DNA of 64,000 nucleotides from a virus: IMG/VR virus record IMGVR_UViG_3300008267_000018, positions 20,613 to 84,612 of that record, one strand, 5' to 3'. This document shows positions 1,132-22,363 of this stretch, one piece after another. Each line of letters begins with the position of its first letter. Within the stretch, counting starts at the first letter, position 1. The notes under the pieces are model-generated. The model was given only the letters and a program-made list of their open reading frames with translations. It had not been told where the DNA came from and made no database searches. Position numbers and translations under genes: made by a program.

Positions 1132-1159
1132 CGGTCAGTTTTACGTCATGACCAGGACG
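1132..1159 (-). ncRNA. leader pseudoknot, copy 1
   Basis: CGTC-CTGGTCAT-GACG-TAAAAC-TGACCG; loop TGGTCA pairs with TGACCG. Confidence 0.7.
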
Positions 1160-1164
1160 TTAGA

Positions 1165-1500
1165 TCACTCTGGTTTAGTCAGCAGTTCTTTGATAGCTTG
1201 GATTTCATCCATCAAGTCCTGGCGACTATATAACGTGAGTGAATCATAGGAACGCTCCACGATTTTTTCAGGGGCTTCAGTCTTCTGGATAATGCGAGCC
1301 TCATCATTGACATCGTACGTAACAGTCTCGTACATTCTCCAGATCACATCATGGGGCCAACCATTGAGGTCTACGTTTTCCTCAAGTGATGCACGAATGA
1401 GTGCATGCATTGTCTTGAAAAGAAACGTAGCCTTATCCTCAAAGATCTCAAGGTAACGATCTTCGTCAAGGCCGTAAGTGTCAATCGACATAGCAGTCAA
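1165..1500 (-). CDS. hypothetical protein
   Basis: 111-aa ORF coupled to its neighbours. Confidence 0.65.
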   Translation of the reverse strand: MTAMSIDTYGLDEDRYLEIFEDKATFLFKTMHALIRASLEENVDLNGWPHDVIWRMYETVTYDVNDEARIIQKTEAPEKIVERSYDSLTLYSRQDLMDEIQAIKELLTKPE

Positions 1501-1672
1501 GTGCGTTGGTTAATGCTTCAATGATAAAGGATTTTTGTCCTTTTTCACCAAGGTTTGTCCAGTATTCAAGATCTGGATCAGCATCATCCCACTCAATGCG
1601 GATGATGCAACCACCATCTTCTTCGTCAATCACAGTCACTTGCAACTTGTTTACCCAATTCGTGTTCAACAT
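1481..1672 (-). CDS. hypothetical protein
   Basis: 63-aa ORF in a chain of overlapping genes. Confidence 0.6.
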   Translation of the reverse strand: MLNTNWVNKLQVTVIDEEDGGCIIRIEWDDADPDLEYWTNLGEKGQKSFIIEALTNALDCYVD

Positions 1673-1811
1673 GAGCTTTTAATACCTCTTCGACATAGTC
1701 TTCTTGGTGCATCCTAAGTTCTGCGCCAAGTTTTACAAGACCCCAGTGGGTATCTTGATCTAGTTCAAGATCGTAACGGATTGTTGTTTTGGTGTGTAAG
1801 TTGTGCTTCAT
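1626..1811 (-). CDS. hypothetical protein, possibly ribbon-helix-helix-like
   Basis: 61-aa ORF with ATGA coupling to the upstream gene. Confidence 0.55.
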   Translation of the reverse strand: MKHNLHTKTTIRYDLELDQDTHWGLVKLGAELRMHQEDYVEEVLKAHVEHELGKQVASDCD

Positions 1812-2743
1812 TTCTTTTTGATTGCGGATTGCAGTTGTGACAATGCAGTACCAGGAAATGGTACATAGCCTGCCTCCATCATATTGAAAAACAAATCCCA
1901 GGCATGCCCTTGGTTGAATACCTCCGTTGGTTTGTACGTACGCCAGTGAGTCAATGGAGCCTGAGCACCAGACTTGGTATGCAGAAGTACAAACTTACCA
2001 TCACTGATGTGATCCTGAGGAGGTGCATACCACCATGCCACACACTTATCAGGTGTACCACTGGGCAATGCATTACGCACCTCAGTCCGCTTGCACAGCA
2101 GCTCACGGTATTTATGGAACCAAGTCAGGTGGATGCACCAGGGCTTGAATCCTTCGATCTCTTGTCGGAACAAATCCAAGTTGTTGAGCTGACGTTGAAA
2201 GGACCCGCATGAACAGAAAGGTTCAGGGACTTTGGACTCAGCTTGGTCCTCCACCAAGTCAGCGTCCATATCAATGGGCCGATTTGGAGCCCGCAACCCG
2301 TCCGGCGCAACCAAATGCCCCAGGTCCGTTTGGTCATTCTGGAGAAGAGCGATGACTTTATTGGGGTCAGATAAATGAATGAACTTGTCTGCCCAGTGTT
2401 GTTGGAGCTTGGCATTGGAAGTCAGGTGTCCGAGTGCGTGTGAGTAGTTCCAGCCCTTAAACATAACGTAAGCATTGTTATGCCATACACTAGGGCCACG
2501 GTAATTAGGACCAAGGTAAGAAAAGAAGTCTTTGAGTCGGTGAGTATACTGCTGGAACGCTGTCTTGATCAACGTCCGTTCATAAGCCTGCTCACTACCA
2601 TCACAACGCACCACAACACAATTGTCATCTCGCAGATAAATGCCAGAGATTTCGGTGTCATCAAAGTCTGCATACGCACGACGAATGTTGGACCGTGAAT
2701 AGATGAGGGCTTGAGCTGAGTTGAGTTCGGTTTGGAGTTGCAT
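1808..2743 (-). CDS. SWIM zinc-finger protein
   Basis: FCSCGSF...PWCIHL matches CxC-x(n)-CxH. Confidence 0.7.
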   Translation of the reverse strand: MQLQTELNSAQALIYSRSNIRRAYADFDDTEISGIYLRDDNCVVVRCDGSEQAYERTLIKTAFQQYTHRLKDFFSYLGPNYRGPSVWHNNAYVMFKGWNYSHALGHLTSNAKLQQHWADKFIHLSDPNKVIALLQNDQTDLGHLVAPDGLRAPNRPIDMDADLVEDQAESKVPEPFCSCGSFQRQLNNLDLFRQEIEGFKPWCIHLTWFHKYRELLCKRTEVRNALPSGTPDKCVAWWYAPPQDHISDGKFVLLHTKSGAQAPLTHWRTYKPTEVFNQGHAWDLFFNMMEAGYVPFPGTALSQLQSAIKKK

Positions 2744-2757
2744 GAGTCTGAGTTGAG

Positions 2758-2961
2758 TTAGATGAAGAGATCAGCGTCCTGGTCCCTGTCGTGAAGTGTA
2801 TCACGATACTTGGTCCGCTTGTAGGCCAAGCGCGCCATCCGATACGTTCCGTAAAGAACGCCAGCCCAGCATACAGGACTACCAATGGCCAAGGCAACCA
2901 CTCCTGCTATGGCAGCAGTTGCGGCACCATCTTTGATTGCAGCTTTTTCTTCAGGTTTCAT
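2758..2961 (-). CDS. small membrane protein
   Basis: hydrophobic segment AATAAIAGVVALAIGSPVCWAGVLYG. Confidence 0.6.
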   Translation of the reverse strand: MKPEEKAAIKDGAATAAIAGVVALAIGSPVCWAGVLYGTYRMARLAYKRTKYRDTLHDRDQDADLFI

Positions 2962-3040
2962 TTGTGATTGTTAATACATTTTGAAGTTTTGATCTAGGGT
3001 TTACTATAGATGTAACCTATGGATGCCAACTGAATAAGCC

Positions 3041-3292
3041 ATGGAAGAAATCAAATACGTACCATTAACTAAATTTCAAATTGAACCAACGCTTGATGAT
3101 AAGTTTTGGCTAGAAAAAATCAAACGATCAATTGAAGATTGCAATTCAGTAAGTACCTTAAAAGAAATGGCGACCTTGCTTGCGCAGATCGCCACTCAAC
3201 GTCAAGGTGTGATTAGGGGATTAGTACAAGACATGTTTATTTTTAACGGCATTGCAATCAATCAAGATGACATTGCCAACCCTCCGACTTAG
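3041..3292 (+). CDS. NblA-like protein (divergent)
   Basis: TLDDKFWLEKIKRSIEDCNSVSTLKEMATLLAQIATQRQGVIRGLV fits the NblA helix-loop-helix pattern; oriented against its neighbours. Confidence 0.55.
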   Translation: MEEIKYVPLTKFQIEPTLDDKFWLEKIKRSIEDCNSVSTLKEMATLLAQIATQRQGVIRGLVQDMFIFNGIAINQDDIANPPT

Positions 3293-3707
3293 CTTCTGCA
3301 ATTAAACGAAAAACGGTTCTTTTGTTGTAACCAACATGTTTTGCAATCACATGGACAGCAGTACCTTCTTGTTTCATTTTTAAAATTGTTTTTCTTGTTT
3401 CAAAAGTACATTTTTTTGGATGGGTTCCATGGCGCTTTTTATTGTTCATATCATTTAAATTATCTAATTGTGTTCCAAGTTTTAAATGAAGTGGATTGCA
3501 ACACAATCGTACATCGCATACATGCATAACAACTTTCCCTTTAGGAATAGGACCATAAAAATGCGAGTAAGTCCACCTATGGGCTAGTCTACTCACAGGG
3601 TTTGTAGGCATTTGGCCATAGCCTGCACCCATAGTAGAGCCAAGAAAAGGCCAGCATGAAGCTGGCCCGCCCTCAGAATCAATGAGACTGAGAAAATAAT
3701 AACTCAC
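3258..3707 (-). mobile_element. free-standing HNH homing endonuclease with C-terminal HTH
   Basis: CWPFLG..GYG..AHRWTY..GPIPKGKVVMHVCDVRLCCNPLHL; AT-rich. Confidence 0.85.
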
Positions 3708-4720: not shown

Positions 4721-4742
4721 GATGTGTTCAGGGTTTGGGCGT

Positions 4743-4769
4743 GGACGCTTTTAACGCCATCCCGAGGCG
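4743..4769 (-). ncRNA. leader pseudoknot, copy 2
   Basis: CGCC-TCGGGAT-GGCG-TTAAAAGC-GTCC. Confidence 0.55.
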
Positions 4770-5014: not shown

Positions 5015-5225
5015 TGGTTTTCTCATTGTTAGATTCAAGCTGAAGCTTGCGTGCTTCAGTAAAAATTTCTGCAATTAAATAAGAAGACCTGGCGAGTGTT
5101 GCAACTGTTTGCGCAAACTCTTCTCCGCTTTGTTCTTTGTCTTGGAAAAAAGTGTTTATGTTTTCCATGAAAAACTCATAAGCCATTGCATCAAGAAGGC
5201 TTAGGTTGGTAATTTCAAGTGACAT
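5001..5225 (-). CDS. hypothetical protein
   Basis: 74-aa ORF in operon. Confidence 0.6.
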   Translation of the reverse strand: MSLEITNLSLLDAMAYEFFMENINTFFQDKEQSGEEFAQTVATLARSSYLIAEIFTEARKLQLESNNEKTNVKS

Positions 5226-6046: not shown

Positions 6047-6068
6047 TAACTTGAGAAGTTAGGTGTTA

Positions 6069-6095
6069 AGGCAGTTTAACGTCATACCTGGGACG
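6069..6095 (-). ncRNA. leader pseudoknot, copy 3 (upstream of ssb)
   Basis: CGTC-CCAGGTAT-GACG-TTAAAC-TGCCT. Confidence 0.7.
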
Positions 6096-9003: not shown

Positions 9004-9031
9004 TGAATGAGTTTAGGGACATCTCAGGTCC
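9004..9031 (-). ncRNA. leader pseudoknot, copy 4
   Basis: GGAC-CTGAGAT-GTCC-CTAAA-CTCATTCA. Confidence 0.6.
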
Positions 9032-14176: not shown

Positions 14177-14227
14177 GGATGAATGCCAGCCCTAGTATCG
14201 AGGCTAAGGCTGGCAAGCCTGTGCGGG

Positions 14228-15973
14228 CTACGCAGACTTTAGCTCATCATTGCGGGAATGCAACGCCTTGCCAAAGGCTTTTGTGTATGCATCCTTCTGC
14301 TCGTCTGTCAACCGTTGGTTTGACATGCCAACGATCTGACTGACGGTCATCATGCCCATGTCAACTTTAAGTTGAACAGTGAACTGAGGTTTGCCATCCA
14401 CCATACAGAGCACAATAAAATGCTTCTTCTTGCGTACACCATCAGCATAGTCTTTGGCATTGCCGACGCAATTGCGTACGGCTTGGCCCCATGCTGACAG
14501 TTGGTGTGTGTCATGAGGCTGGAAAAATGACCAACGCTCATCATTCACTTGTACCTTGACAGGTACAGGGAATAGATCTTGAGGTAAGCCAACGTTGGGA
14601 TGCTTGATCTTCCATGCTTCTGCTTGCACATGGTCATGGAACTCAGTGAGACGCCAACGCTTTGGTGCTGTAATAACAATGTTGTTACACAGTACATCAT
14701 CTAGCATAGACAGAGTATCATTCCAGTCACTGAAGTAGAACGTAACAACGCCTGTCTCAACAGGTGTGTAGTAGCTAAAACGATGCTGTTCACTTGCTGA
14801 AGTAAACTGCAAAGCATAGTGCTGCTTAAGCATGTTAAAGAAACTAGCTGGTTGCATATTGGTACGCAACCAAGTAACAGTTCTTTCAGGAAGGTAGCGA
14901 TCAAGTCGCACACCCAATAGTTCTGTCACATGTGTTTGATAGTAATCAATAGGGCAGTCCGGCCAGATTCTGTTGATATAGTCAATAGATTGAACCAGTT
15001 TCTCGATACGCTTCCAAGGCTGTGTTAGCTTACAAAACAGATTATTGTCTGGATCATTGAACATTGCAATAGCTTCATCACATTGTGATTGAATCCATTT
15101 ACGGAAGAATGGTTTACCAACAATGTGAATGATGCGACTAATAACACTGAAGTGTTGGCCATGAACTGAGTTGTTGCTTGGATATGTATCAGCCAATGTA
15201 TAAACAAGATCAGCAGATGGCACTAGATCAAGCATTGTTTGAACAGGATTATCAAACTGTTGCCAATACTTTGTGTAGCCTTTCAACTGAAGAATGTTGG
15301 TCCAGTTGTTAGTAGTGATACGATCAAAGAATCCACGTGAGTCATGCCATTTAGGAATGGTTGCAGATAACGTAGCTTCGAATGCATTAATGGTTTCTCT
15401 AATCCATTGGCCTTTGCCATATGAAATATAAAAACCGTTCCACCACTTTGTTGTTTGTCCGTTAACAATATCTTCCTTGGTTACGTTCTGACGTACGACA
15501 CAGAATTCACTGCGTCCGTACTTAACGTATTCAACGGTACGCTTACTGTTGTTATCAATAAGAGTATGAGGGATGGATTTAAGTACAGAATCTAGATTCT
15601 TGTATGCATATGCATAGCCATACACATAGTCATCTTCTTGTCCTTTAGGTGGCAGCCATGCTGCATACCACACCTTCTCGTAGTGATAGATGATGGTATG
15701 CGTAATGGTGCGTGCCGTAGGTGTAGCAACATCTACCACCTTGGTAAACCGATGATGACGTTGCTCTACGCCTCTGGAGTTGATGCTAGTTACTGCATCT
15801 TCTAAAGCTTCTGGTCTAATGACATCAGCAGGGATCAGATCAAACACAGCACCAAGTGGAAACTTGGGCTTAGCCTTGACAGCTTTAGGATTCTGCTCCC
15901 GTGCCAGTTGCTTAAGCTTGGGATCGTAGGCCAGTAGTTCTGTTTGGAGATTGGAAGGAAGACGGAATTCCAT
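14228..15973 (-). CDS. PcfJ-domain protein
   Basis: C-terminal FHDHV...P..T.QLSAWGQAVRNCVG...YA..V. Confidence 0.7.
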   Translation of the reverse strand: MEFRLPSNLQTELLAYDPKLKQLAREQNPKAVKAKPKFPLGAVFDLIPADVIRPEALEDAVTSINSRGVEQRHHRFTKVVDVATPTARTITHTIIYHYEKVWYAAWLPPKGQEDDYVYGYAYAYKNLDSVLKSIPHTLIDNNSKRTVEYVKYGRSEFCVVRQNVTKEDIVNGQTTKWWNGFYISYGKGQWIRETINAFEATLSATIPKWHDSRGFFDRITTNNWTNILQLKGYTKYWQQFDNPVQTMLDLVPSADLVYTLADTYPSNNSVHGQHFSVISRIIHIVGKPFFRKWIQSQCDEAIAMFNDPDNNLFCKLTQPWKRIEKLVQSIDYINRIWPDCPIDYYQTHVTELLGVRLDRYLPERTVTWLRTNMQPASFFNMLKQHYALQFTSASEQHRFSYYTPVETGVVTFYFSDWNDTLSMLDDVLCNNIVITAPKRWRLTEFHDHVQAEAWKIKHPNVGLPQDLFPVPVKVQVNDERWSFFQPHDTHQLSAWGQAVRNCVGNAKDYADGVRKKKHFIVLCMVDGKPQFTVQLKVDMGMMTVSQIVGMSNQRLTDEQKDAYTKAFGKALHSRNDELKSA

Positions 15974-16000
15974 GGTGAGTTCGTAGTAAGTTCGTAGTAG

Positions 16001-16028
16001 TGGACAGTTTAACGTCATGTCCAGGACG
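16001..16028 (-). ncRNA. leader pseudoknot, copy 5
   Basis: CGTC-CTGGACAT-GACG-TTAAAC-TGTCCA; 6-bp second stem. Confidence 0.75.
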
Positions 16029-16033
16029 TAGGG

Positions 16034-16282
16034 TTAGTCGTTATCTATTGGAAGGAGTTCCCAGTCAGGGTCGAGCTTAGCAAGATAATCGCAGAAGCCA
16101 TCTTCGTCAAGAGGGATTTGTTCTCCCTCATCCAGTTCAAAGCTAGTTCTGCATAGTGCAGGAGCGTACTCCTCAGGGTCAAGGTAAGTTGACCGATAGA
16201 TGAGACGCATCTCGTCCACAATTGCTGTAACTGTGACTTCATATCCATTGATGGTTGTGTCTTCAATAGCAAGGACTTGCAT
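16034..16282 (-). CDS. hypothetical protein
   Basis: 82 aa with a DPEEYAPALC motif. Confidence 0.6.
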   Translation of the reverse strand: MQVLAIEDTTINGYEVTVTAIVDEMRLIYRSTYLDPEEYAPALCRTSFELDEGEQIPLDEDGFCDYLAKLDPDWELLPIDND

Positions 16283-16285
16283 GAG

Positions 16286-16483
16286 TTACACCTGTGTGAG
16301 TTGTTTGGCCTGGGCAAACTGACCTTCAGGCCCATACTTCTGGACAAGGTCAGGGAATGCATCAAGCAAACGCTGCCGATTCTTTGGATCAGCAAAGCGT
16401 AGTGCTTGTGCAATTGAGGATACAAATGATCCGCCATAGCTGTCCATGCGGGCAATCATGGCGTGTAGCTCAGTGCTGTTCAT
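16286..16483 (-). CDS. hypothetical protein
   Basis: YGGSFVSSIAQALRFADPKN..RLLDAFP, a motif common in small phage proteins. Confidence 0.65.
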   Translation of the reverse strand: MNSTELHAMIARMDSYGGSFVSSIAQALRFADPKNRQRLLDAFPDLVQKYGPEGQFAQAKQLTQV

Positions 16484-16503
16484 GAGTTTAGGTTGAGTTG
16501 GAA

Positions 16504-16531
16504 TGGATGAGTTTAAGGACATCCCAGGTCC
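16504..16531 (-). ncRNA. leader pseudoknot, copy 6
   Basis: GGAC-CTGGGAT-GTCC-TTAAAC-TCATCCA. Confidence 0.6.
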
Positions 16532-16536
16532 TTGGA

Positions 16537-16734
16537 TCAGAACAACTTGATGTTGCGTTTACTCAAGCCTGTGCCAGGCAATGAGATAGATCCACGTACA
16601 CCAGATTCTCTGGCGTTAAGTGTTACCTGGAATGGTCCAAGTTGAATCGACTTAGTAAACGATTTGATTCCATGTTCAGTGACATTGAATCCAGCAATTG
16701 TCTTGTCAAAGTTAATGGGTGACTTGTCAGTCAT
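16537..16734 (-). CDS. DUF4236-like small protein
   Basis: FTKSIQLGPFQVTLN...SISLPGTGLS. Confidence 0.55.
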   Translation of the reverse strand: MTDKSPINFDKTIAGFNVTEHGIKSFTKSIQLGPFQVTLNARESGVRGSISLPGTGLSKRNIKLF

Positions 16735-17071
16735 CGAGTTGCTCCAGTGCTTTACGAATGATGTCGTAAGTGACATCATCAATCTTGTCTCTGTTGTATA
16801 CATCGCCAAGTTCAATTAACGCTTGCTCCTTTAAGCTTGGCGGCCTGGGGCGGCGGGCGGCGCGGAGTGATGGGATGAGAGCGCAGTGAGTTACTAGGTT
16901 TTGGCAGCGCAGCCACTCACAACACGCCTCTAGCTCCTGATCGGCGCCCCAGCGGGCGGCTTGGGTGGCGATGAAATCTACAAGTCCATCATGTTTGACC
17001 TTGGCATCAATCCAAGAATCGTGCCACTGCTCCACCAGTTCCGGCGGTGGGGTAATTGGATGGTCAGTCAT
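16727..17071 (-). CDS. small protein, 'ITPPPEL' paralog family
   Basis: HPITPPPELVEQW..ARWGADQELEAC..PPSLKEQAL. Confidence 0.65.
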   Translation of the reverse strand: MTDHPITPPPELVEQWHDSWIDAKVKHDGLVDFIATQAARWGADQELEACCEWLRCQNLVTHCALIPSLRAARRPRPPSLKEQALIELGDVYNRDKIDDVTYDIIRKALEQLDD

Positions 17072-17363
17072 CGTAGGAATCCTCGTGACAAAGAATGAAT
17101 TTTAATTCGAAATACTCCGAATCGCTATTGTCTTTGGAATGGTACTTGGCTTCGAATCCACCAGATCCAACACATGTTTCCTTGATGGATTCATTTAATA
17201 AATGACGTGCCCTTGCTTTAAGTCTTTGCAATGTTGGCAATGAGTATCCATTGCCTGCCGTTGTTTGCCATTGCCAGTCAAGTGCTGTCATGGCAATCAA
17301 TACTTTTTCAAAGTTGAATTTGTCAATGATCTCATCGATCATTTCCTTCTGATCAGGAGTCAT
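17064..17363 (-). CDS. hypothetical protein
   Basis: FNFEKV..AM..LDWQW...GSGGF. Confidence 0.6.
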   Translation of the reverse strand: MTPDQKEMIDEIIDKFNFEKVLIAMTALDWQWQTTAGNGYSLPTLQRLKARARHLLNESIKETCVGSGGFEAKYHSKDNSDSEYFELKFILCHEDSYDD

Positions 17364-17563
17364 TTGAGGTTGTCAGGTAGTAGTGCTTGGGTGTCTTCAT
17401 CATCCATGTTTGTCATGATGAACTTTTGTCCATCGGGGGCAACAAAGCCCCCGATAAAACCAATGCCATGTTTATCTGCTGATTCTTTCATCTTGGCTAC
17501 AAGCTGCATAGCTTGGAGTCGTTGAAGATCAATAGAGTCTGGGATGCGCAGGCTGTCAGACAT
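17360..17563 (-). CDS. hypothetical protein
   Basis: 67-aa coupled ORF. Confidence 0.6.
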   Translation of the reverse strand: MSDSLRIPDSIDLQRLQAMQLVAKMKESADKHGIGFIGGFVAPDGQKFIMTNMDDEDTQALLPDNLK

Positions 17564-17668
17564 TTGATTAGTACGTGAGGTGAGTTGAGTGTGGTCACGG
17601 CAAGTCTACCAGGGTAGTCAAGCCATGACCAATGGTCTTAATGTTTCCTTAACCTTGCGGTAGGGCTG

Positions 17669-18139
17669 TTAGCTATGAAGTTCTTGGTGCTGACGCCATG
17701 CAGCTGTGTGCATTTCATCAGCAGTCAGTGGTGACTCACTGCCATAGCCAAGCTCTTCATCTGATGGTTCATAGTCAAGTTCATTGTCAAGCATGGGGAT
17801 AATCTCATCATCCAGCATGGCAAGCATGGAGGGTGTGAGATGTTGATCCATTTCGTGACGTTTGCTCTCACGTTGAGAGATAGCTTTCAGTTCTTCGAGA
17901 ATGTTGGCAAGCTTGTGGTACTCGTTAAGGTTGGTCTTGTGAGTAGTCATGGGTTGATTATTGGAAGATTGAGTAGTGATCTGGAACTTAATCAGTTCAG
18001 TTAGTCCAACAAGCCTGGTGATTACCAGGTCTTTGTTGTCATGAACTGTTGCATCATCTTTGAGTACTTCAGTTAATGCAAACAATGCATCATGGATGAA
18101 AGTGATGTCTACTTCTGTGAAGGAGTACTGTTTAGTCAT
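17669..18139 (-). CDS. hypothetical protein; may be two fused ORFs with a second start at 17950
   Basis: AACCCATGACT start context occurs twice in frame. Confidence 0.5.
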   Translation of the reverse strand: MTKQYSFTEVDITFIHDALFALTEVLKDDATVHDNKDLVITRLVGLTELIKFQITTQSSNNQPMTTHKTNLNEYHKLANILEELKAISQRESKRHEMDQHLTPSMLAMLDDEIIPMLDNELDYEPSDEELGYGSESPLTADEMHTAAWRQHQELHS

Positions 18140-18228
18140 GGGTTGGTAAGTGAATGAATGGTGTGTAGTACAGAGGCATCTCTTATAGATTAAGGTGCAC
18201 CTCTGGTACTTCTGTCGGGGGGTCTGGG

Positions 18229-18530
18229 GGGTAGGCCAGTAGTTATCTGGCAATACCCTTGATGAGTTTAAAAACAGTTGTGAGGCGTACCTAGTTCTTT
18301 GATCAATCGCTCAAAGGAACAATTGACTCTTGTGCCGTTAACGACTGCATAGATGTTATCGCTGCCATAAGTTGTACGCAGTTCAGTTATCTTATCTTCT
18401 GGTATAGCTAGAAGATGAGGTCTGCCATCTGAAGTAACTTGAGTGGTTTTGAAAACAAAAATTCTTTGTGGCATTGTGTTAATTACGTTGAGCTTAAATG
18501 GGTAGGCCAGTAGTTATCTGGCAATACCCT
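18229..18530. repeat. 31-bp perfect direct repeat (18229-18259 and 18500-18530) flanking one ORF
   Basis: GGGTAGGCCAGTAGTTATCTGGCAATACCCT twice; each copy is an imperfect hairpin. Confidence 0.9.
18268..18474 (-). CDS. hypothetical protein between the direct repeats
   Basis: 68-aa ORF. Confidence 0.6.
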   Translation of the reverse strand: MPQRIFVFKTTQVTSDGRPHLLAIPEDKITELRTTYGSDNIYAVVNGTRVNCSFERLIKELGTPHNCF

Positions 18531-18596
18531 GGTACTTACTGTTCGCTATTCGCAAATAGCGAATGTCAGCATAACGTTAGTGTTATGTGCCGTAGG

Positions 18597-18626
18597 TTAG
18601 ATCAAGCCGAGAATCCTAAGCCAGGA
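18597..18626 (-). pseudogene. stranded original 3' end (SWLRILGLI*) of gene 19161..19520
   Basis: TCC TGG CTT AGG ATT CTC GGC TTG ATC TAA versus the current tail SWLSILGLI*. Confidence 0.8.
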
Positions 18627-19158
18627 GTTTACAACTGATTTCAGGCAATACATTTAATACTGAAAAATCTTTGTAAACATCTTTAACAAAGCAATTGTAT
18701 TCATAGGCTAAACGAGCAGGGCATATGTGATGAGCAAGATGTTTAGACTTACCGTTTAGAGTAACGGTAGACCTAAATAAACCTCTTGTCTTGTGCCATG
18801 AAACCCCCTTGTAACCCGTAGTGTTACTAGATCTAAGTTTCATGTTTGCTGCGTTTTGAGATCTACTTGATAAACGTAGATTTTCAATACAGTTATTAGA
18901 ACTATCTTGATCTATATGATCAACTTCATATTGACCAGGATCTGTACCTGTGGCCAGATAATAAACAATCCTGGCGCACTTATAGTTCTTTCCATTGATT
19001 TGAATTATAGATCGCTTGGATTTAAAATCATAGGCACCTGCCTGTTCACCAGGTTTGCATCGATTATTAAAGCTGTATTTAACAGCAAGACCAGTAGGAA
19101 AACTGGGGCAAAGTTCATAACGCTTTGCCACCAAATCGTAGTCAGGCATGTTGTGCAT
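18616..19158 (-). mobile_element. HNH-AP2 homing endonuclease
   Basis: VDHIDQDSSNNCIENLR, SSNTTGYKGVSWHK; AT-rich; start adjusted to ATG 19158. Confidence 0.85.
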
Positions 19159-19160
19159 AA

Positions 19161-19520
19161 TTAAATCAATCCAAGAATTGATAACCAAGAATCTACGTGG
19201 TCTGGTTCGACTTCGTCACTGCAGGGAGTGAGGCAGGTGCTGTCGAACGTGTACTCCTCGATCTCTTCGTTGGTTGGGATGTCGTACCATCCTTCGAGAT
19301 CTTCCTTGTCCTGGGCTGAGTAGTTACCACCGGCTGGGATCCAGTAGCACCTGAGGATTCCACGCTTGGTTCTGTAGACATTACCAGTGCAGGCGATGGC
19401 GCCTTTGGGTGCGTCCTGAAAGTCTGTCTCTGCTTGGAACTGCTGGTTACCTTCGTCTTCGTCGAAGGCTTCGTAGCCGAGTGCGTCTGCGATGAGCAGT
19501 TGTTCAGGTTGAAGAGACAT
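19161..19520 (-). CDS. hypothetical protein whose C-terminus is supplied by the HNH cassette
   Basis: DSTCLTPCSDEVEPDHVDSWLSILGLI. Confidence 0.7.
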   Translation of the reverse strand: MSLQPEQLLIADALGYEAFDEDEGNQQFQAETDFQDAPKGAIACTGNVYRTKRGILRCYWIPAGGNYSAQDKEDLEGWYDIPTNEEIEEYTFDSTCLTPCSDEVEPDHVDSWLSILGLI

Positions 19521-19672
19521 GAGATGAGATCTCCGATGAGTGTGATTGAGATTGAGATGAGTGTGATCAGGACAATGGCGATGTCGTCAACAATGTCGAC
19601 CTGCTGTTGATTAGCAGTTGATGTCGGCACAGTTGACGAGTTGTCCTTAGTACGTTGAGTTGATTTGGTCAT
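19193..19672 (-). CDS. membrane protein overlapping 19161..19520
   Basis: hydrophobic helix IAIVLITLISISITLIG followed by an S/T-rich tail in the overlap. Confidence 0.5.
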   Translation of the reverse strand: MTKSTQRTKDNSSTVPTSTANQQQVDIVDDIAIVLITLISISITLIGDLISCLFNLNNCSSQTHSATKPSTKTKVTSSSKQRQTFRTHPKAPSPALVMSTEPSVESSGATGSQPVVTTQPRTRKISKDGTTSQPTKRSRSTRSTAPASLPAVTKSNQTT

Positions 19673-19674
19673 GG

Positions 19675-19818
19675 TTAATCACCGTGGTAAGTGGATGGGT
19701 AGTCAGTGGTATCCCAATCAGATTGATTGGATTCACGCATGGCTTGCTCCTGCTCATAGGCAATGTCTGCCATAGCATCAAGCAAGTCTGCGTTGTAGTT
19801 CTGATCAAGTTGAGTCAT
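19675..19818 (-). CDS. small acidic protein (47 aa, MTQLDQNYNADLLDAM...)
   Basis: read manually; CTCAACTCA leader and pseudoknot copy 7 upstream. Confidence 0.55.
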   Translation of the reverse strand: MTQLDQNYNADLLDAMADIAYEQEQAMRESNQSDWDTTDYPSTYHGD

Positions 19819-19840
19819 GGTCTGAGTTGAGATGGAACGG

Positions 19841-19868
19841 TGAGCAGTTTAAGGACATGCTCAGGTCC
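19841..19868 (-). ncRNA. leader pseudoknot, copy 7
   Basis: GGAC-CTGAGCAT-GTCC-TTAAAC-TGCTCA. Confidence 0.75.
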
Positions 19869-19886
19869 ATACGTAGTACTGATGTA

Positions 19887-20261
19887 CTACCTCATGAGTC
19901 TGTTCTTGAAGTTGGGGATATATACATTGTCTTGGCACGGTTCCTTATAGGACCTGTACGTGACAATTGCATAGATGGCCGCTGGTGTCATGTCGTATGC
20001 CCTGGCAATAAACCCAATTGATTCATTGTATTTAGCACGGGCACGAATGTCATTGACCTGGGCATCACTAAGGAAGCCACGGTAGCGTCCACGTTTGATT
20101 GGGTCTTCCTTGAGGGGAGGACGTTGCCTCACTCTACGGATGACCTTAGTCATTGATATGGGACTGCAGTTGACAATGCTAGCGATCAGATCGTAGCGAT
20201 AACCTTTGCAACGCAGATCCCAAATCTGGTCTTCTTTCAGGATAGAAATGCGTGATTTCAT
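19887..20261 (-). CDS. tandem HTH DNA-binding protein
   Basis: LRCKGYRYDLIASIVNCS and LSDAQVNDIR..IARAYDMTPAAIYAIV. Confidence 0.65.
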   Translation of the reverse strand: MKSRISILKEDQIWDLRCKGYRYDLIASIVNCSPISMTKVIRRVRQRPPLKEDPIKRGRYRGFLSDAQVNDIRARAKYNESIGFIARAYDMTPAAIYAIVTYRSYKEPCQDNVYIPNFKNRLMR

Positions 20262-20283
20262 TGGATTTGAGTTGAGTTGTTGG

Positions 20284-20311
20284 TGAGTAGTTTAAGGACA
20301 TGCTCAGGTCC
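20284..20311 (-). ncRNA. leader pseudoknot, copy 8
   Basis: GGAC-CTGAGCAT-GTCC-TTAAAC-TACTCA. Confidence 0.65.
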
Positions 20312-20422
20312 ATCTAATACTTGGAATCTTAATAACCGTTGTTTATCAAAGATCTTAATAACTAAACAGCCATTACTTTGGTGCTGGCTGTTCGGGTGGG
20401 GGTCTGGGGGTAAACCTAGTGC

Positions 20423-20764
20423 TTATCTTATGTATAGGTATGAACCTGCATAATCACAGTTGTGTAGGCAGGTTTCAAATGATTGATCATCCAGTAGTTG
20501 GTACCGTGCATGTTCCGCTGGTGCTTTCCATGATGCAGGCTTATAGATAGTCCCTGTCTGTCTTGCGACAAATGCATGGACTGATCTGCCTTCATACCTG
20601 GTACCAGGACTAGAGACATGGATGATCTTGTAGTACTTAACCCCTCGCTTAACTTCGAAAGCTACGGGGCTACTGTGCTGTTTGTAGAACTTATCTTGGA
20701 GAGTCTCGCAGAGTTGTTGGATGCGATCCTCGATAAGCTTGGTGTTAGCGCTTAGTGTTGTCAT
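20423..20764 (-). CDS. conserved cyanophage hypothetical protein
   Basis: GVKYYKI..SVHAFV...TG.IYKPASWKAPA..ARY. Confidence 0.7.
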   Translation of the reverse strand: MTTLSANTKLIEDRIQQLCETLQDKFYKQHSSPVAFEVKRGVKYYKIIHVSSPGTRYEGRSVHAFVARQTGTIYKPASWKAPAEHARYQLLDDQSFETCLHNCDYAGSYLYIR

Positions 20765-20942
20765 GTTGTTGAGTAGGAGTTGGGTTGGTGATATCAATGC
20801 CGACTACAGCAGTTGCTGTGAAGCCAGCAATGATAAGTGATAGGGCTGCCACACAGATCTTACTAAGGCGAGTCTCATGAGACGCATAGTAAGAATCAAG
20901 GTGGACAAATTGCCCTGGTGCTAGACGAACGATGTGCTTCAT
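20745..20942 (-). CDS. small membrane protein
   Basis: hydrophobic ICVAALSLIIAGFTATAVVGI. Confidence 0.55.
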   Translation of the reverse strand: MKHIVRLAPGQFVHLDSYYASHETRLSKICVAALSLIIAGFTATAVVGIDITNPTPTQQHDNTKR

Positions 20943-20948
20943 TGGTTT

Positions 20949-21209
20949 TCAGTTGACTGCAAGGATGTACTTAACGCATACGTAGCTTGGCACTACGTAG
21001 TAGCTAGGAATCTCGTTGAGATAGTACCATTCACCCTTGTAGTCAAGAGATATGCAAGAGTTTTCGGTAACAAGCTGTAGTGCTTTGGCGCCTGTGGTGC
21101 ACCAAACCATGTATACATTCTTGTCAAACAGCAGATAGTAATCATGCTCTTTGATGTCAAACTCTTTGAGTGCAGATTGAATTTGAATGTGGTCAAGTGT
21201 GATTGGCAT
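20949..21209 (-). CDS. hypothetical protein
   Basis: 86-aa ORF. Confidence 0.55.
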   Translation of the reverse strand: MPITLDHIQIQSALKEFDIKEHDYYLLFDKNVYMVWCTTGAKALQLVTENSCISLDYKGEWYYLNEIPSYYVVPSYVCVKYILAVN

Positions 21210-21233
21210 AGAGATTCAACTGGGTTGAGTGTG

Positions 21234-21279
21234 TGCAGACGCTGAGGTCTGCAGTAAAGGCCCGAAGGCCCTTAGTGCA
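21234..21279 (-). ncRNA. intergenic double-hairpin element A
   Basis: TGCA CT AAGGGCC TTCG GGCCTTT AC TGCA GAC CTCAGC GTC TGCA. Confidence 0.6.
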
Positions 21280-21283
21280 AACG

Positions 21284-21481
21284 TCAAAGGTAACGCTTAT
21301 CCAGGCAATAGTATGCATCGCCTATAAAGCTACGCATGTATACCAGTTGATGCCCTGCTTTCGCTGGGCAATGTTTGACGTAATAATTGTTGAGTAACTT
21401 CTGTGCTCCTACGGATAAGAGCATACCTGCTCCTACGCCCATAACCATGGCCAGCACAGGTGTTGCGAGTGAGTCTTTCAT
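21284..21481 (-). CDS. small membrane protein
   Basis: N-terminal hydrophobic helix and a Cys pair. Confidence 0.55.
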   Translation of the reverse strand: MKDSLATPVLAMVMGVGAGMLLSVGAQKLLNNYYVKHCPAKAGHQLVYMRSFIGDAYYCLDKRYL

Positions 21482-21520
21482 GTCAGTTGAGCTGAGGTTG
21501 ATTGAGTGTGTTGAGAAGGA

Positions 21521-21793
21521 TCACATGCGTTGAAGCTTGCGCTCTAGTTCCATGTCAATGGAGTAATGATAGTAGTCTTCCATCTCCATGAGCATCTCCT
21601 TCATACTTGTTGGTACGCCACCGCCAAGTGTACGTACGTCACGGTCTAGCCACTCTTGCCATTCGGCATCGGTGTCTGGGTCAAATGTATTCCACAGCTT
21701 CTCAAAGTGAAGCTGGGTTGATTCGCCGCCATACCATGTGACGCGGTACTGTTGTTCGGCGGATGGTTTGTAGACCAGCTCAGGTGTTGTCAT
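21521..21793 (-). CDS. hypothetical protein
   Basis: 90-aa ORF. Confidence 0.6.
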   Translation of the reverse strand: MTTPELVYKPSAEQQYRVTWYGGESTQLHFEKLWNTFDPDTDAEWQEWLDRDVRTLGGGVPTSMKEMLMEMEDYYHYSIDMELERKLQRM

Positions 21794-21818
21794 TGTTGAG
21801 TTGAAGTAGCGTTGATGA

Positions 21819-21864
21819 CAGGATGTTGAGTCCTGCAGTAAAGGCCCGTAGACCCTTAGTGCAG
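21819..21864 (-). ncRNA. intergenic double-hairpin element B (paralog of A)
   Basis: CTGCA CT AAGGGTC TACG GGCCTTT AC TGCAG GA CTCAACA TCCTG. Confidence 0.6.
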
Positions 21865-21867
21865 AAG

Positions 21868-22041
21868 TCAGAGTTCAGGTTTAGGAGTAATGACGAATGC
21901 CACATCGTTAGGCATCAGTAGTGCTGCTGCCCTGATGCGGTATTCATTCAGCTTGGTGCTGACATACTCCTTAGATTTGTCACTCTCCAGCATTGCTGCT
22001 GTCGAGATGAGTGCATTGGCTAGTCCTTTGCGGATACCCAT
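21868..22041 (-). CDS. hypothetical protein
   Basis: start adjusted to ATG 22041 (MGIRKGLA...). Confidence 0.55.
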   Translation of the reverse strand: MGIRKGLANALISTAAMLESDKSKEYVSTKLNEYRIRAAALLMPNDVAFVITPKPEL

Positions 22042-22116
22042 GTTGTGTTGTGTAGATGCCACTGAGTGTGGCAATTCCTGACCAGGGGATTTGATCCCCC
22101 GGCATCACGCTTGTGA

Positions 22117-22308
22117 TCAGGCAAGCCAATTCTGGTAGATCCAGATACGGCACTCATCGTAATCAAGGTTGACGTTGGGGTCTTTGCACATGGCAGAAGC
22201 CTGAGCCTCTACCCATGTGCAAACGTGGCAATCAACCATGACAGGCAGCTCGATGCCACATACTGTTGCAACGTAATCGCCCTGTTGATTAAGTGAGATA
22301 CAGTTCAT
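22117..22308 (-). CDS. small Cys-rich protein
   Basis: 63 aa; leader motif and pseudoknot copy 9 upstream. Confidence 0.55.
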   Translation of the reverse strand: MNCISLNQQGDYVATVCGIELPVMVDCHVCTWVEAQASAMCKDPNVNLDYDECRIWIYQNWLA

Positions 22309-22338
22309 GATGTTGAGGTGAGTTGATGTGGGTTTGAT

Positions 22339-22363
22339 GCTACGTTTAACGTCCAGCTTGACG
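22339..22363 (-). ncRNA. leader pseudoknot, copy 9 (variant)
   Basis: CGTC-AAGCTG-GACG-TTAAACG-TAGC. Confidence 0.5.

What the first reader, a model, noticed from the sequence alone, without database searches (positions are those of the whole stretch)
1132..22363. Dispersed family of at least nine covarying H-type RNA pseudoknots in 5' leaders of left-arm genes
Seen in sequence, minus strand: 4-bp stem P1, 6-8-nt loop, P1', an A-rich linker (usually UUAAAC), then a strand complementary to the loop. Copies start at 1132, 4743, 6069, 9004, 16001, 16504, 19841, 20284 and 22339. P1 covaries (CGUC/GACG, GGAC/GUCC, CGCC/GGCG). P2 covaries too (UGGUCA/UGACCG, UGGACA/UGUCCA, UGAGCA/UGCUCA, AGGUA/UGCCU), with G-U pairs, which points to RNA rather than a DNA site. 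Each is intergenic and about 20-35 nt upstream of a start codon, including those of ssb, DUF5895, gp88 and PcfJ. I saw none in the structural arm. The architecture recalls tmRNA PK1, preQ1-I and the T4 gene 32 leader pseudoknot, but the sequence matches none that I can confirm. Inference: a phage-wide post-transcriptional regulon, for example a block to RNase J 5'-3' decay, a translation enhancer for SD-less genes, a protein-binding operator, or an antitermination signal.
Basis: partly seen in the sequence, partly recalled or inferred. Interest (0 to 1): 0.82.

Follow-up and report, generated by a model that had tools for sequence, protein, structure and literature searches.

The report
Coremin-like RNA pseudoknots before phage genes
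Small folded RNA knots sit just ahead of several early genes of this freshwater cyanophage; the same 28-base knot recurs in hundreds of unrelated phages and closely resembles an RNA that plant and fungal viruses use to stop an RNA-degrading enzyme, so it probably shields the message behind it.

Summary
All nine sites have the 4-bp hairpin and the UUAAAC-type linker, on the gene-sense strand only. A covariance model supports seven as pseudoknots. The copies at 4743 and 22339 are degenerate.

The element is not specific to this phage. The window is an S-EIV1-like Synechococcus phage. The same 28-nt motif, S1(4)-C-S2(6)-U-S1'(4)-UUAAAC-S2'(6), occurs in all 16 close relatives fetched and in isolate S-EIV1. 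It also occurs in over 100 IMG/VR stretches, 139 cultured-phage records and 69 stretches of bacterial genomes. It lies ahead of ssb and scaffold genes, tRNAs and hammerhead ribozymes.

Both stems covary strongly. G-U outnumbers A-C 85 to 11. Upstream stop codons lie at least 5 nt before it, and start codons mostly 19-22 nt after it. This is an RNA structure, not a DNA site. No Rfam family matches.

Its hairpin, first loop base and linker match the coremin Xrn1-resistant RNA of eukaryotic RNA viruses at 17 of 18 shared positions. The phage form has a long Watson-Crick stem 2 in place of coremin's second hairpin.

Best reading (about 0.45): a roadblock to 5'-3' exonuclease (RNase J) that protects the downstream unit. 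Function is untested.

This scan met the motif before on other DNA (e1-6061275, e1-5665406).

The parts
1132..1159 (-). Pseudoknot copy 1. CGUC / C-UGGUCA-U / GACG / UAAAAC / UGACCG. A 19-nt leader with no G runs to the ATG at 1112 (37-aa ORF). The upstream ORF stops 5 nt before S1.
   Evidence: R1 E = 9.9e-9
4743..4769 (-). Degenerate copy 2. CGCC / UCGGGAU / GGCG / UUAAAA / GCGUCC. A 22-nt leader runs to the ATG at 4720 (DUF5895 gene). The upstream stop lies 5 nt before S1. Stem 2 is doubtful.
   Evidence: not found by R1. Homologous by position to canonical copies in relatives; Pfam.
6068..6095 (-). Pseudoknot copy 3. CGUC / C-CAGGUA-U / GACG / UUAAAC / UGCCUU. A 21-nt leader runs to the ATG at 6046 (ssb).
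   Evidence: R1 E = 4.8e-9; Pfam
9004..9031 (-). Pseudoknot copy 4, of the 7-nt-loop subclass. GGAC / CUGAGAU / GUCC / CUAAAC, then UCA-UUCA. UGAG pairs with UUCA. The leader runs to the ATG at 8971 (GP88 gene). There is no close upstream ORF.
   Evidence: R1 E = 0.024. The subclass covaries as UGGG/UCCA, UGAG/UUCA and UGGA/UCCA.
16001..16028 (-). Pseudoknot copy 5. CGUC / C-UGGACA-U / GACG / UUAAAC / UGUCCA. A 27-nt leader runs to the ATG at 15973 (PcfJ-like gene). The upstream stop lies 5 nt before S1.
   Evidence: R1 E = 4.4e-9; Pfam
16504..16531 (-). Pseudoknot copy 6, of the 7-nt-loop subclass. GGAC / CUGGGAU / GUCC / UUAAAC, then UCA-UCCA. The leader runs to the ATG at 16483 (65-aa ORF). 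The upstream stop lies 5 nt before S1.
   Evidence: R1 E = 0.0038
19841..19868 (-). Pseudoknot copy 7. GGAC / C-UGAGCA-U / GUCC / UUAAAC / UGCUCA. A 22-nt leader runs to the ATG at 19818 (47-aa ORF).
   Evidence: R1 E = 1e-7. Stem energies: S1 -4.4 and S2 -5.4 kcal/mol.
20284..20311 (-). Pseudoknot copy 8. GGAC / C-UGAGCA-U / GUCC / UUAAAC / UACUCA, with one C-A mismatch in stem 2. A 22-nt leader with no G runs to the ATG at 20261 (124-aa ORF).
   Evidence: R1 E = 1.5e-7
22338..22363 (-). Degenerate copy 9. CGUC / AAGCUG / GACG / UUAAAC / GUAGCA. It lacks the invariant loop C and has no in-register stem 2. A 29-nt leader with no G runs to the ATG at 22308 (63-aa ORF).
   Evidence: only a partial R1 match, 22344-22353, E = 3.2

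Best explanation
Each copy is a compact H-type RNA pseudoknot transcribed as part of the early/replication mRNAs. Stem 1 is 4 bp. One C crosses stem 2. Stem 2 is 6 bp. One U sits at the junction. The A-rich linker UUAAAC runs along stem 1.

It is a self-contained module that many unrelated phages place at the 5' edge of an RNA unit: an ORF with its ribosome landing site, a tRNA or a ribozyme.

Its core is the same as that of the coremin xrRNA of eukaryotic RNA viruses, so the most likely action is mechanical. It stops a 5'-to-3' enzyme coming from upstream, above all the exoribonuclease RNase J. The downstream cistron (here ssb, DUF5895, GP88, PcfJ and small ORFs) then outlives the upstream part of the polycistronic message and is expressed more.

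Shown:
- the fold;
- the RNA strand;
- the spacing rules;
- the wide distribution;
- the sequence match to coremin.

Inferred:
- exonuclease resistance;
- RNase J as the target;
- the effect on expression.
For: Fold:
- 95.9% of 1326 pair cells are standard pairs, against 85.0 +/- 0.4% in shuffles (0 of 500 reach it). The covariation score is 0.404 against 0.189. Slid controls give 16-61%.
- There are 70 distinct stem-2 helices among 133 sequences.
- In an unbiased set fetched with a stem-1 + linker pattern only, 116 of 143 matches have at least 5 of 6 stem-2 pairs in register.

RNA, sense strand:
- All 86 model hits in 404,584 bases lie on the gene strand.
- G-U/U-G cells number 85, A-C/C-A cells 11.
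- There is no conserved promoter-like signal upstream.

Spacing over 193 non-redundant copies:
- ORF stops lie 5 nt (60 copies), 6 nt (14) or 7 nt (8) before S1, and only 2 copies have a gap of 0-4 nt.
- The start codon lies 19-22 nt after stem 2 in 100 copies, and closer in only 5.

Belongs to the downstream unit:
- The ssb, PcfJ and GP88 copies keep their distance to the downstream gene while the upstream neighbours vary.
- Elsewhere the motif lies before scaffold genes (6 of 10 proteins tested), 3 nt before tRNAs, directly before hammerheads and before DUF2800 RNA.

Coremin link:
- The phage consensus matches coremin in the CGUC/GACG stem with its C-G closing pair, the loop starting with C and ending A-U, and the linker UUAAACU[G/A]C. 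Coremin was taken from Dilweg 2019 (results and discussion read) and from 45 natural copies.
- Coremin stalls Xrn1 and scanning ribosomes and promotes -1 frameshifting.
- A Watson-Crick variant pairs loop nt 6 and 7 with spacer nt 20 and 19. That is the register of the phage stem 2.

Host range:
- Cultured-phage hits are on Staphylococcus, Synechococcus, Nostoc, Microcystis, Lactobacillus, Bacillus, Mycobacterium, Arthrobacter and Paracoccus.
- The model hits 7 of 151 genomes of the Enterococcus class and 0 of 151 genomes of a class whose centre record is titled Gammaproteobacteria.
- There is no match in 5,426 E. coli genomes.
- RNase J (TIGR00649) scores over its cut-off in 150 of 151 and 0 of 151 of the same two samples. 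It also rings in the Synechococcus, Corynebacterium, Caulobacter, Bacillus and Lactococcus controls.
Against: - No RNA data: no RNA run was listed for this phage, so neither transcripts nor 5' ends were seen.
- In coremin and its Watson-Crick variant, the second hairpin hp2 is strictly needed for Xrn1 resistance, and ordinary frameshift pseudoknots do not stall Xrn1. The phage motif has no hp2: the 24 nt after it have a median MFE of 0.0, against -5.0 for coremin. That the long stem 2 replaces hp2 is my inference.
- The loop does not fit YGAD/YGNNAD at its second position (U, not G).
- One lineage of Vibrio phages (27 near-identical records) carries a good copy, antisense to the annotated genes. 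I expect Vibrio to lack RNase J, but that is recalled, not tested.
- Before a hammerhead or a tRNA, the knot is cut away from the downstream product, which fits a shield less well.
- The genome-sample scan scored only 45 candidates per genome, so 7 against 0 of 151 is a weak contrast.
Confidence: 0.45

Rival explanations
1. The knot is a translation device. It acts on ribosomes rather than nucleases. It could stop post-termination or read-through ribosomes from sliding into the next cistron, which would uncouple translation. Or it could give the 30S subunit a docking or standby platform just 5' of a leader that is unstructured and lacks a Shine-Dalgarno sequence.
For: - The spacing limits are sharp: stop codon at least 5 nt before, start codon at least 19 nt and mostly 19-22 nt after.
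- The leaders are G-poor, about 5% G at positions +29 to +50, with no SD.
- Coremin blocks scanning ribosomes and drives -1 frameshifting in vitro.
- In other phages the knot abuts an SD, 11-16 nt before the ATG.
Against: - The same knot sits 3 nt before tRNAs and directly before hammerheads and DUF2800 RNA, where no initiation takes place.
- Many SD-less left-arm genes have the same C/A-rich leader without a knot.
- The spacing limits are also what any RNA fold that must stay folded next to ribosomes would show.
Confidence: 0.2
2. The knot is an operator or aptamer. It binds a protein (for example the phage SSB, as in T4 gene 32) or a small molecule, and so sets the expression of a group of genes.
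For: - About 12 of 28 positions are nearly invariant, including unpaired ones: loop C 184 of 184, linker AA 184 of 184.
- One copy precedes ssb.
- In Erysipelotrichaceae copies the knot is closed by a helix whose 3' strand holds the SD, which is a riboswitch-like layout.
- T4 gene 32 uses a leader pseudoknot followed by unstructured RNA (review passages).
Against: - The same sequence occurs in phages of cyanobacteria, Firmicutes, Actinobacteria, Alphaproteobacteria and CPR bacteria, with no shared phage protein known.
- In this window stem 2' ends at least 19 nt from the start codon, so there is no expression platform.
- Stem 2 is a stable 6-bp helix that needs no ligand.
- No riboswitch family of Rfam matches, even in a 71-nt search at E <= 10.
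Confidence: 0.12
3. The knot is a processing mark. It is recognised by an endonuclease (an RNase P-type mimic of the acceptor arm, or RNase E/Y), or it cleaves itself, and so cuts polycistronic RNA into units.
For: - It occupies the same niches as small self-cleaving ribozymes and lies right next to hammerheads and tRNAs, which are themselves processing signals.
- High sequence conservation in a tiny fold across phyla suits a function that needs no special factor.
Against: - No cleavage site can be named.
- The discriminator/CCA-like tail is not conserved.
- It has no P2/P3 like pistol and no Rfam ribozyme match.
- A cut beside a ribozyme or tRNA would be redundant.
Confidence: 0.12
4. The element works at the DNA level: a promoter, an operator for a dimeric protein, or a single-stranded DNA structure for replication or priming.
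For: - Both stems are inverted repeats.
- TAAACT fits a minimal -10 (TAnnnT).
- The copies are intergenic.
Against: - Compensatory changes in two interleaved repeats are not expected for a protein site.
- G-U outnumbers A-C 85 to 11, so only the sense strand folds.
- There is no conserved -35 or upstream signal, and promoter-like sites are not enriched: 26 found against 31.7 in shuffles.
- No phage RNA polymerase was found among the large ORFs.
- The spacing follows codons.
Confidence: 0.03

Closest known systems
Coremin motif (xrRNA-C) and its Watson-Crick variant (xrRNA-WCC) of beny-, cucumo-, hypo-, chryso- and other eukaryotic RNA viruses (Dilweg et al. 2019 PMC6546385; 2023 PMC10520033; 2023 PMC10321173)
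   Same: - The hairpin stem is CGUC/GACG with an obligatory C-G closing pair.
- The loop opens with C. That nucleotide cannot be replaced in coremin and is invariant here.
- The loop ends A-D.
- The linker is UUAAACU(A/G)C.
- The loop-to-spacer pairing register is 7-19 and 6-20.
- It sits just after stop codons or in intergenic regions.
- There are several copies per genome.
- 17 of the 18 shared positions have the same majority base.
   Different: - The phage form has a 7-8 nt loop whose middle forms a 6-bp (or 4-bp) Watson-Crick stem 2.
- It lacks hp2, which coremin needs for Xrn1 resistance.
- The hosts are bacteria and the genomes are DNA.
- The nuclease would be RNase J, not Xrn1.
- Resistance is untested.
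T4/T2 gene 32 mRNA leader pseudoknot (translational operator)
   Same: - It is an H-type pseudoknot in a phage 5' leader.
- It is followed by unstructured RNA up to the ribosome binding site.
- It lies ahead of an ssDNA-binding protein gene (review PMC3014915, passages).
   Different: - The T4 element is a single copy, 67 nt upstream, and binds gp32 for autoregulation.
- There is no sequence likeness.
- Here there are nine copies before unrelated genes, and the element is spread across phyla.
preQ1-I riboswitch (Rfam RF00522) and other small H-type pseudoknot aptamers
   Same: - It is a pseudoknot of about 30 nt.
- It has an A-rich 3' loop along stem 1.
- It lies in 5' leaders.
   Different: - No covariance-model match, even at E <= 10 on 71 nt.
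- Loops 1 and 2 are one base each.
- Stem 2 is long and stable.
- The SD is not part of stem 2'.
Pistol ribozyme (P1 hairpin whose loop pairs downstream; Harris et al. 2015 PMC4604425, passages read)
   Same: - A short P1 hairpin whose loop forms a pseudoknot downstream.
- It is linked to phages.
- It is found near hammerheads.
   Different: - No P2 or P3 and no G-U cleavage junction.
- The pseudoknot strand follows the linker directly.
- No Rfam pistol match in 20 + 8 loci or in the window.
GP20-a / GP20-b RNA motifs (Rfam RF02991, RF03003) upstream of phage scaffold genes
   Same: - They occupy the same niche in Firmicutes phages: the leader of PF06810 scaffold genes.
   Different: - Neither model matches any locus carrying the knot, at gathering score or at E <= 1.

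Membership tests
Coremin / xrRNA-C | 5' hairpin hp1 of 3-5 bp whose loop-closing pair is C-G (Y-R) | tested here: met
   S1 is 4 bp. Closing pair: C4 in 184 of 184 copies, G13 in 179 of 184. The requirement is read.
Coremin / xrRNA-C | Loop lp1 fits YGAD (4 nt) or YGNNAD (6 nt); 7- and 8-nt loops are tolerated in the BNYVV context | tested here: inconclusive
   Here the loop is 8 nt (7 in a subclass). The first base is C in 184 of 184 copies. The last two are A (179 of 184) and U/A/G (163 of 184). The second base is U (166 of 184), not G. Consensus taken.
Coremin / xrRNA-C | Conserved spacer U13 U14 A15 A16 A17 C18 U19 A20 C21, with A16-A20 essential | tested here: met
   The phage consensus is U U A A A C U G/A C. 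Eight of nine positions have the same majority base. At the A20 position the phage has G in 153 and A in 27 of 184 copies, and this base pairs with the loop.
Coremin / xrRNA-C | Second hairpin hp2 (at least about 4 bp) right after the spacer; strictly needed for Xrn1 resistance | tested here: not met
   For the 24 nt after the motif, the median MFE is 0.0 kcal/mol and 9.6% of 177 copies reach <= -3. For 39 natural coremin copies the median is -5.0 and 72% reach <= -3. Requirement read.
Coremin / xrRNA-C | Stalls a 5'-3' exoribonuclease in vitro | not testable with these tools
   Needs an RNase J or Xrn1 digestion assay.
Watson-Crick coremin (xrRNA-WCC) | Antiparallel stem 2 between loop nt 6, 7 (8) and spacer nt 20, 19 (18) | tested here: met
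   Phage pairs A11-U23 and Y10-R24 correspond to 7-19 and 6-20. They covary: CG 83, UG 33, UA 9 at one pair. The 8-18 pair is not formed (U12 opposite C22).
preQ1-I riboswitch (RF00522) | Match to the family covariance model | tested here: not met
   No match at the gathering score, at E <= 10 on 24 kb or at E <= 10 on 71 nt.
Pistol ribozyme (RF02679) | P1, P2, P3, a pseudoknot to the P2-P3 junction, and a G-U cleavage junction | tested here: not met
   Only P1 and a pseudoknot are present. The downstream leader is unstructured. No Rfam match. Features read.
T4 gene 32-type operator | Leader pseudoknot that nucleates binding of the phage SSB over an unstructured ribosome binding site | not testable with these tools
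   The architecture is alike for the ssb copy. Binding cannot be tested. Eight other copies precede other genes.

The most novel reading that the evidence does not exclude
This is the first exoribonuclease-resistant RNA of the bacterial world. It would be a phage module sharing fold and core sequence with the coremin xrRNA of plant, fungal and invertebrate RNA viruses, used to block RNase J and set differential stability within phage operons (ssb here, scaffold and capsid genes in Firmicutes phages). The hundreds of natural phage variants would also solve the long-sought coremin fold: an H-type pseudoknot whose stem 2 pairs the loop with the CUAC part of the spacer. In the phage form that stem takes over the place of hp2.
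Probability: 0.35. Interest if true: 0.9.

Novelty: new variant of a known kind. Interest (0 to 1): 0.8.

Why it matters
Exoribonuclease-resistant RNAs are known only from eukaryotic viruses. No natural RNA fold that stops bacterial RNase J has been described in the papers I could search. Searches found nothing that links coremin or xrRNA with phages. The three Dilweg papers contain no 'phage', 'bacteri' or 'RNase J'.

A 28-nt element that is almost letter-identical from cyanophages to staphylococcal phages, and shares its core with coremin, would matter in three ways:
- It would show one RNA device in use by viruses of two domains.
- It would explain how phages raise the output of high-demand genes (SSB, scaffold, capsid) inside long operons.
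- It would give synthetic biology a tiny mRNA stabiliser or insulator.

The rich natural covariation also offers a direct structural model for coremin, whose fold is still unsolved.

It is readily testable. Cultured systems carry the motif: S-EIV1 with Synechococcus PCCC-A2c, S. aureus Phietavirus prophages, Lactobacillus phage phiEF-1.1 and Arthrobacter phage Molivia.

Tried and rejected
Rfam:
- Gathering scan of the window: only tRNA 13847-13919(-).
- E <= 10 on bases 1-24000: nothing at any copy.
- 20 bacterial loci at gathering score: only neighbouring families.
- 8 Firmicutes loci at E <= 1: nothing.
- 71 nt at E <= 10: three chance hits, all on the antisense strand.

Expression: no RNA holder was listed for window 14000-23400.

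Phage RNA polymerase or N4-type hairpin promoter: the large ORFs are a primase, structural proteins or unknowns. The Atlas look-up of the 993-aa ORF was uninformative. The promoter/terminator scan showed no link to the copies.

Stop-codon read-through or -1 frameshifting at the upstream stop:
- The frames after the stop are not consistently open or in frame (reading).
- TAA is the commonest stop.
- The last sense codons are not conserved.

RNase P acceptor-arm mimic: the 3' tail is not NCCA-like.

3'-end stabiliser of the upstream gene: considered because hammerhead or tRNA cleavage would leave the knot on the upstream product. Ranked low because the knot keeps its place with the downstream gene while upstream neighbours change, and because it often follows a terminator.

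Papers:
- The S-EIV1 genome paper is not held. I cannot say whether it mentions the repeats.
- The catalogue of about 10,000 viral csRNAs (PMC10690425; passages and section 2.6 read) lists unnamed motifs upstream of GP20 and GP32 genes. Its supplements are closed, so the knot's hairpin may be among them.
- The S1 paper PMC7038950 (passages) gave nothing on an S1 pseudoknot consensus. That idea rests on recall only and was dropped.

Statements that rest on recall, not on a call:
- the ribosomal helicase reaching about +11;
- one nucleotide being able to span the deep groove of a 6-7 bp stem;
- flaviviral xrRNA blocking RNase J1;
- Vibrio and E. coli lacking RNase J.

Full report
**What is in the window.** The window is bases 20613-84612 of an 84,612-bp IMG/VR virus record with direct terminal repeats. 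Genes up to about 23,400 run on the minus strand:
- Gp157-like;
- HNH;
- DUF5895;
- SSB;
- family A DNA polymerase;
- GP88;
- ThyX;
- PcfJ-like.

The structural arm follows on the plus strand. The polymerase is 70.4% identical to that of Synechococcus phage S-EIVl, an isolate from an Arctic lake, which has the same gene layout. Holders of the DNA are freshwater and lake metagenomes.

On the minus strand each reads:
- a 4-bp stem S1;
- a loop of 8 nt (five copies), 7 nt (three) or 6 nt (one);
- S1';
- a linker: UUAAAC in six copies, CUAAAC, UAAAAC or UUAAAA in one each;
- in seven copies, a strand that pairs with the loop.

**Is it more than chance?**
- The core pattern occurs 9 times against 1.49 expected.
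- I built a covariance model (R1) from 24 ungapped 37-mers that I chose from the window and relatives. Stem 1 was perfect in these by my selection; stem 2 was not selected for.
- Over 404,584 bases (the window, the rest of the genome up to base 21000, and 20 related loci), R1 gives 86 hits at E <= 1. All 86 lie on the gene-sense strand. None lies in the right arm, in genome bases 1-21000, or in the four distant loci with 36% polymerase identity.
- With filters off on the window, seven copies have E <= 0.024. The 22339 copy matches only in part (E = 3.2) and the 4743 copy not at all. A hit at 8534-8568 (E = 0.14) lacks S1' and the linker, and I take it as false.

**The fold.**
- On 133 distinct sequences from further IMG/VR loci, 95.9% of 1326 cells are standard pairs, against 85.0 +/- 0.4% in shuffles (0 of 500 reach it). 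Sliding the partner gives 16-61%.
- Four of the six stem-2 pairs and three of the four stem-1 pairs change on both sides.
- The outermost stem-1 pair occurs as C-G, G-C, A-U, U-A and U-G. Isolate S-EIV1 alone shows four of these.
- That alignment was fitted to a model containing stem 2. The cleaner test is the set fetched with a pattern that fixes only stem 1 and the linker. There, 78 of 143 matches have 6 of 6 stem-2 pairs in register and 38 have 5 of 6. By my arithmetic about 3% would be expected for random letters. The sequences are related, but they carry 70 different stem-2 helices.
- The 7-nt-loop subclass, which includes copies 9004 and 16504, pairs UGRR with UYCA three bases further on. 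It covaries as UGGG/UCCA, UGAG/UUCA and UGGA/UCCA.
- The geometry suits an H-type knot: one nucleotide across a 6-bp stem 2, six across a 4-bp stem 1. The rule behind that statement is recalled.

**RNA, not DNA.**
- G-U/U-G cells outnumber A-C/C-A cells 85 to 11, so only the sense strand can fold.
- Nothing upstream is conserved except a stop codon.
- Over 193 non-redundant copies, a stop triplet lies exactly 5 nt before S1 in 87. Other offsets hold 3-32.
- In-frame ORF stops lie at 5 nt (60 copies), 6 nt (14) and 7 nt (8). Only two copies have a gap of 0-4 nt. In 31 copies no ORF stop lay in the stretch searched, and in 17 an open frame ran into the motif.
- The next ATG-led ORF starts 19-22 nt after stem 2' in 100 copies, with smaller peaks at 25-28 and 34-35 nt. 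It starts closer than 19 nt in only 5 copies. No such ORF was found within 150 nt in 15.
- Such hard lower limits are what a fold must obey if it is to stay folded next to terminating and initiating ribosomes. The ribosome dimensions behind this are recalled.
- The leaders are G-poor, with 0-2 G in the nine window leaders, and have no SD.

**It belongs to the downstream unit and is widespread.**
- In the S-EIV1-like loci, the copies before ssb, PcfJ, GP88, DUF5895 and a 37-41-aa ORF keep their distance to those genes while the upstream neighbour varies (polymerase, inserted small ORFs, or none).
- A stricter pattern in 185,579 species genomes gave 69 stretches. I expected about 17 by chance (my arithmetic). 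Of 77 matches, 55 have at least 5 of 6 stem-2 pairs.
- In those loci the knot lies before capsid scaffold genes of two unrelated families: 3 PF06810 and 3 PF14265 among 10 proteins tested, with 4 unassigned.
- It also lies directly before four type III hammerheads in one contig, before a DUF2800 RNA, in tandem pairs, and inside two CRISPR spacers.
- blastn of one variant finds 139 cultured-phage records.
- It lies upstream of the scaffold gene in S. aureus phage StauST398-3, Lactobacillus phage phiEF-1.1 and phage D6E.
- It lies 6 nt after the ssb stop and 3 nt before a tRNA in Arthrobacter phage Molivia.
- It lies 3 nt before a tRNA-like gene in Nostoc phage NMeng1.
- It lies 6 nt after a stop in Mycobacterium phage Labelle and in Paracoccus phage ParMal1.
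- Vibrio phages carry a copy with stem UCUC/GAGA, antisense to the annotated genes.

**What it resembles.**
- No Rfam family matches.
- A look-up of earlier notes of this scan showed that the same knot had been followed up on other genomes. One agent had likened it to the coremin motif. I tested that.
- Dilweg et al. 2019 (results and discussion read) define coremin as follows. Hairpin hp1 has 3-5 bp, and its C-G closing pair cannot be inverted. The loop is YGAD. The spacer is U13 U14 A15 A16 A17 C18 U19 A20 C21, with A16-A20 essential. A second hairpin, hp2, follows.
- Coremin stalls Xrn1. Later work (abstracts, discussion part 1 and passages) adds four points. Loops of 6-8 nt are tolerated. 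Coremin blocks scanning ribosomes. It stimulates -1 frameshifting. A Watson-Crick variant pairs loop nt 6, 7 and 8 with spacer nt 20, 19 and 18.
- The phage consensus over 184 copies is C G U C | C U G R N Y A U | G A C G | U U A A A C | U G/A C ...
- At the 18 positions it shares with coremin (stem, first loop base, linker, U-R-C), the majority base is the same at 17.
- The classical tetraloop form occurs in 46 IMG/VR stretches. All are contigs of 1.1-10.3 kb, mostly near one end, as expected for RNA viruses, and each is followed by a hairpin.
- The phage pairs A11-U23 and Y10-R24 are the 7-19 and 6-20 pairs of the Watson-Crick variant.
- The difference is real. The phage form has no hp2, while hp2 is reported as strictly needed for Xrn1 resistance, and ordinary frameshift knots do not stall Xrn1.
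- My structural guess is that the outer three pairs of the long phage stem 2 occupy the place of a stacked hp2.

**Host range and RNase J.**
- The cultured hosts are Staphylococcus, Lactobacillus, Bacillus/Geobacillus, Mycobacterium, Arthrobacter, Synechococcus, Nostoc, Microcystis and Paracoccus, plus one Vibrio phage lineage.
- R1 hits 7 of 151 genomes sampled from the class of an Enterococcus genome. It hits 0 of 151 sampled from the class of a record titled Gammaproteobacteria. Only 45 candidates per genome were scored.
- There is no blastn match in 5,426 complete E. coli genomes.
- In the same two samples, RNase J (TIGR00649) scores over its cut-off in 150 of 151 and 0 of 151. The named controls that ring include Synechococcus elongatus, Corynebacterium, Caulobacter, Bacillus and Lactococcus.
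- The distribution fits RNase J but does not prove it. The Vibrio case speaks against it.

**Verdict.**
- The element is an RNA pseudoknot, and a member of a large, uncatalogued phage family.
- Its nearest known relative is the coremin xrRNA, of which it is a new variant with a Watson-Crick stem 2 and no hp2.
- The most likely action is to stop RNase J, and perhaps ribosomes, at the 5' edge of a downstream unit. This would favour high-demand genes such as ssb here and scaffold genes elsewhere.
- I put this at about 0.45. The rivals are a ribosome-directed role (0.2), a binding site or aptamer (0.12), a processing mark (0.12) and a DNA element (0.03).
- All functional statements are inferences. 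The assay that decides is simple and is given under next steps.

Noticed in passing
window 21794-21843 and 21210-21259, minus strand: A second, different leader element precedes the genes that start at 21793 and 21209. Both leaders open with CTTTACTGCAG and then form a hairpin (CAGGA..TCCTG and GCAGAC..GTCTGC), followed by a C/A-rich leader without an SD.
   Followed up: no
window, left arm (e.g. upstream of ATGs at 2743, 17563, 21481, 21793): Many left-arm genes without a knot also have G-poor leaders rich in CTCAACTCA-like repeats and no Shine-Dalgarno sequence. Initiation without an SD seems to be the rule in this arm.
   Followed up: partly
L198 (Firmicutes bacterium CAG:95 contig), four sites: Four knots in 8 kb, each followed within 1-2 nt by a type III hammerhead ribozyme. 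Rfam RF00008 scores two of them over its cut-off. Self-cleavage would leave the knot at the 3' end of the upstream RNA.
   Followed up: partly
L218 (Arthrobacter phage Molivia) 395-511; L220 (Nostoc phage NMeng1) 395-506: The knot lies 3 nt before a tRNA or tRNA-like gene. In Molivia it also lies 6 nt after the ssb stop codon.
   Followed up: partly
L150 (Bradymonadales MAG) about 1786-1820; L176 (Calditrichia MAG) about 5127-5168: The knot sequence sits inside a CRISPR spacer, flanked by direct repeats on both sides. Phages carrying the knot are therefore targeted in these phyla too.
   Followed up: no
L149, L162, L164, L180, L183, L190, L207 (Erysipelotrichaceae / Bacilli MAGs): Here the knot is enclosed by a helix of about 9 bp (ATTACCT / AGGTAAT). 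The 3' strand of that helix contains the SD of a conserved 74-aa ORF, which is a riboswitch-like layout.
   Followed up: no
L120 4615-4800 (IMG/VR contig labelled GVMAG, 7,982 bp, G+C-rich): Three tandem knots, about 74 nt apart, lie in a divergent intergenic region. The first two are each followed by a CCCC..GGGG hairpin and a T run, so they look like tandem small-RNA units. Further tandem repeats follow.
   Followed up: partly
L216 (Vibrio phage D456 g1) 398-430: A good copy (UCUC/GAGA stem, UUAAAC, stem 2 of 5 bp) sits in a Vibrio phage lineage of 27 records. It lies on the strand opposite to the annotated neighbouring genes and overlaps one CDS end by 10 nt.
   Followed up: partly
window 23512-26493, plus strand: The first gene of the right arm encodes a 993-aa protein with no Pfam or PHROG match and no usable Atlas neighbour.
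   Followed up: partly
window 23396-23420, plus strand: In the divergent region between the two arms, a palindrome CCCCAATTGGGG runs into GCGTTAAAC. This shares the linker letters of the knot but has no matching hairpin or stem 2.
   Followed up: no
L145, L146, L211, L215 (Enterococcus and Lactobacillus prophage/phage scaffold leaders): About 20 nt after the knot comes a second conserved hairpin, CGTGG-NNNN(NN)-CCACG. An A-rich tail and the SD of the scaffold gene follow. Rfam does not match it.
   Followed up: no
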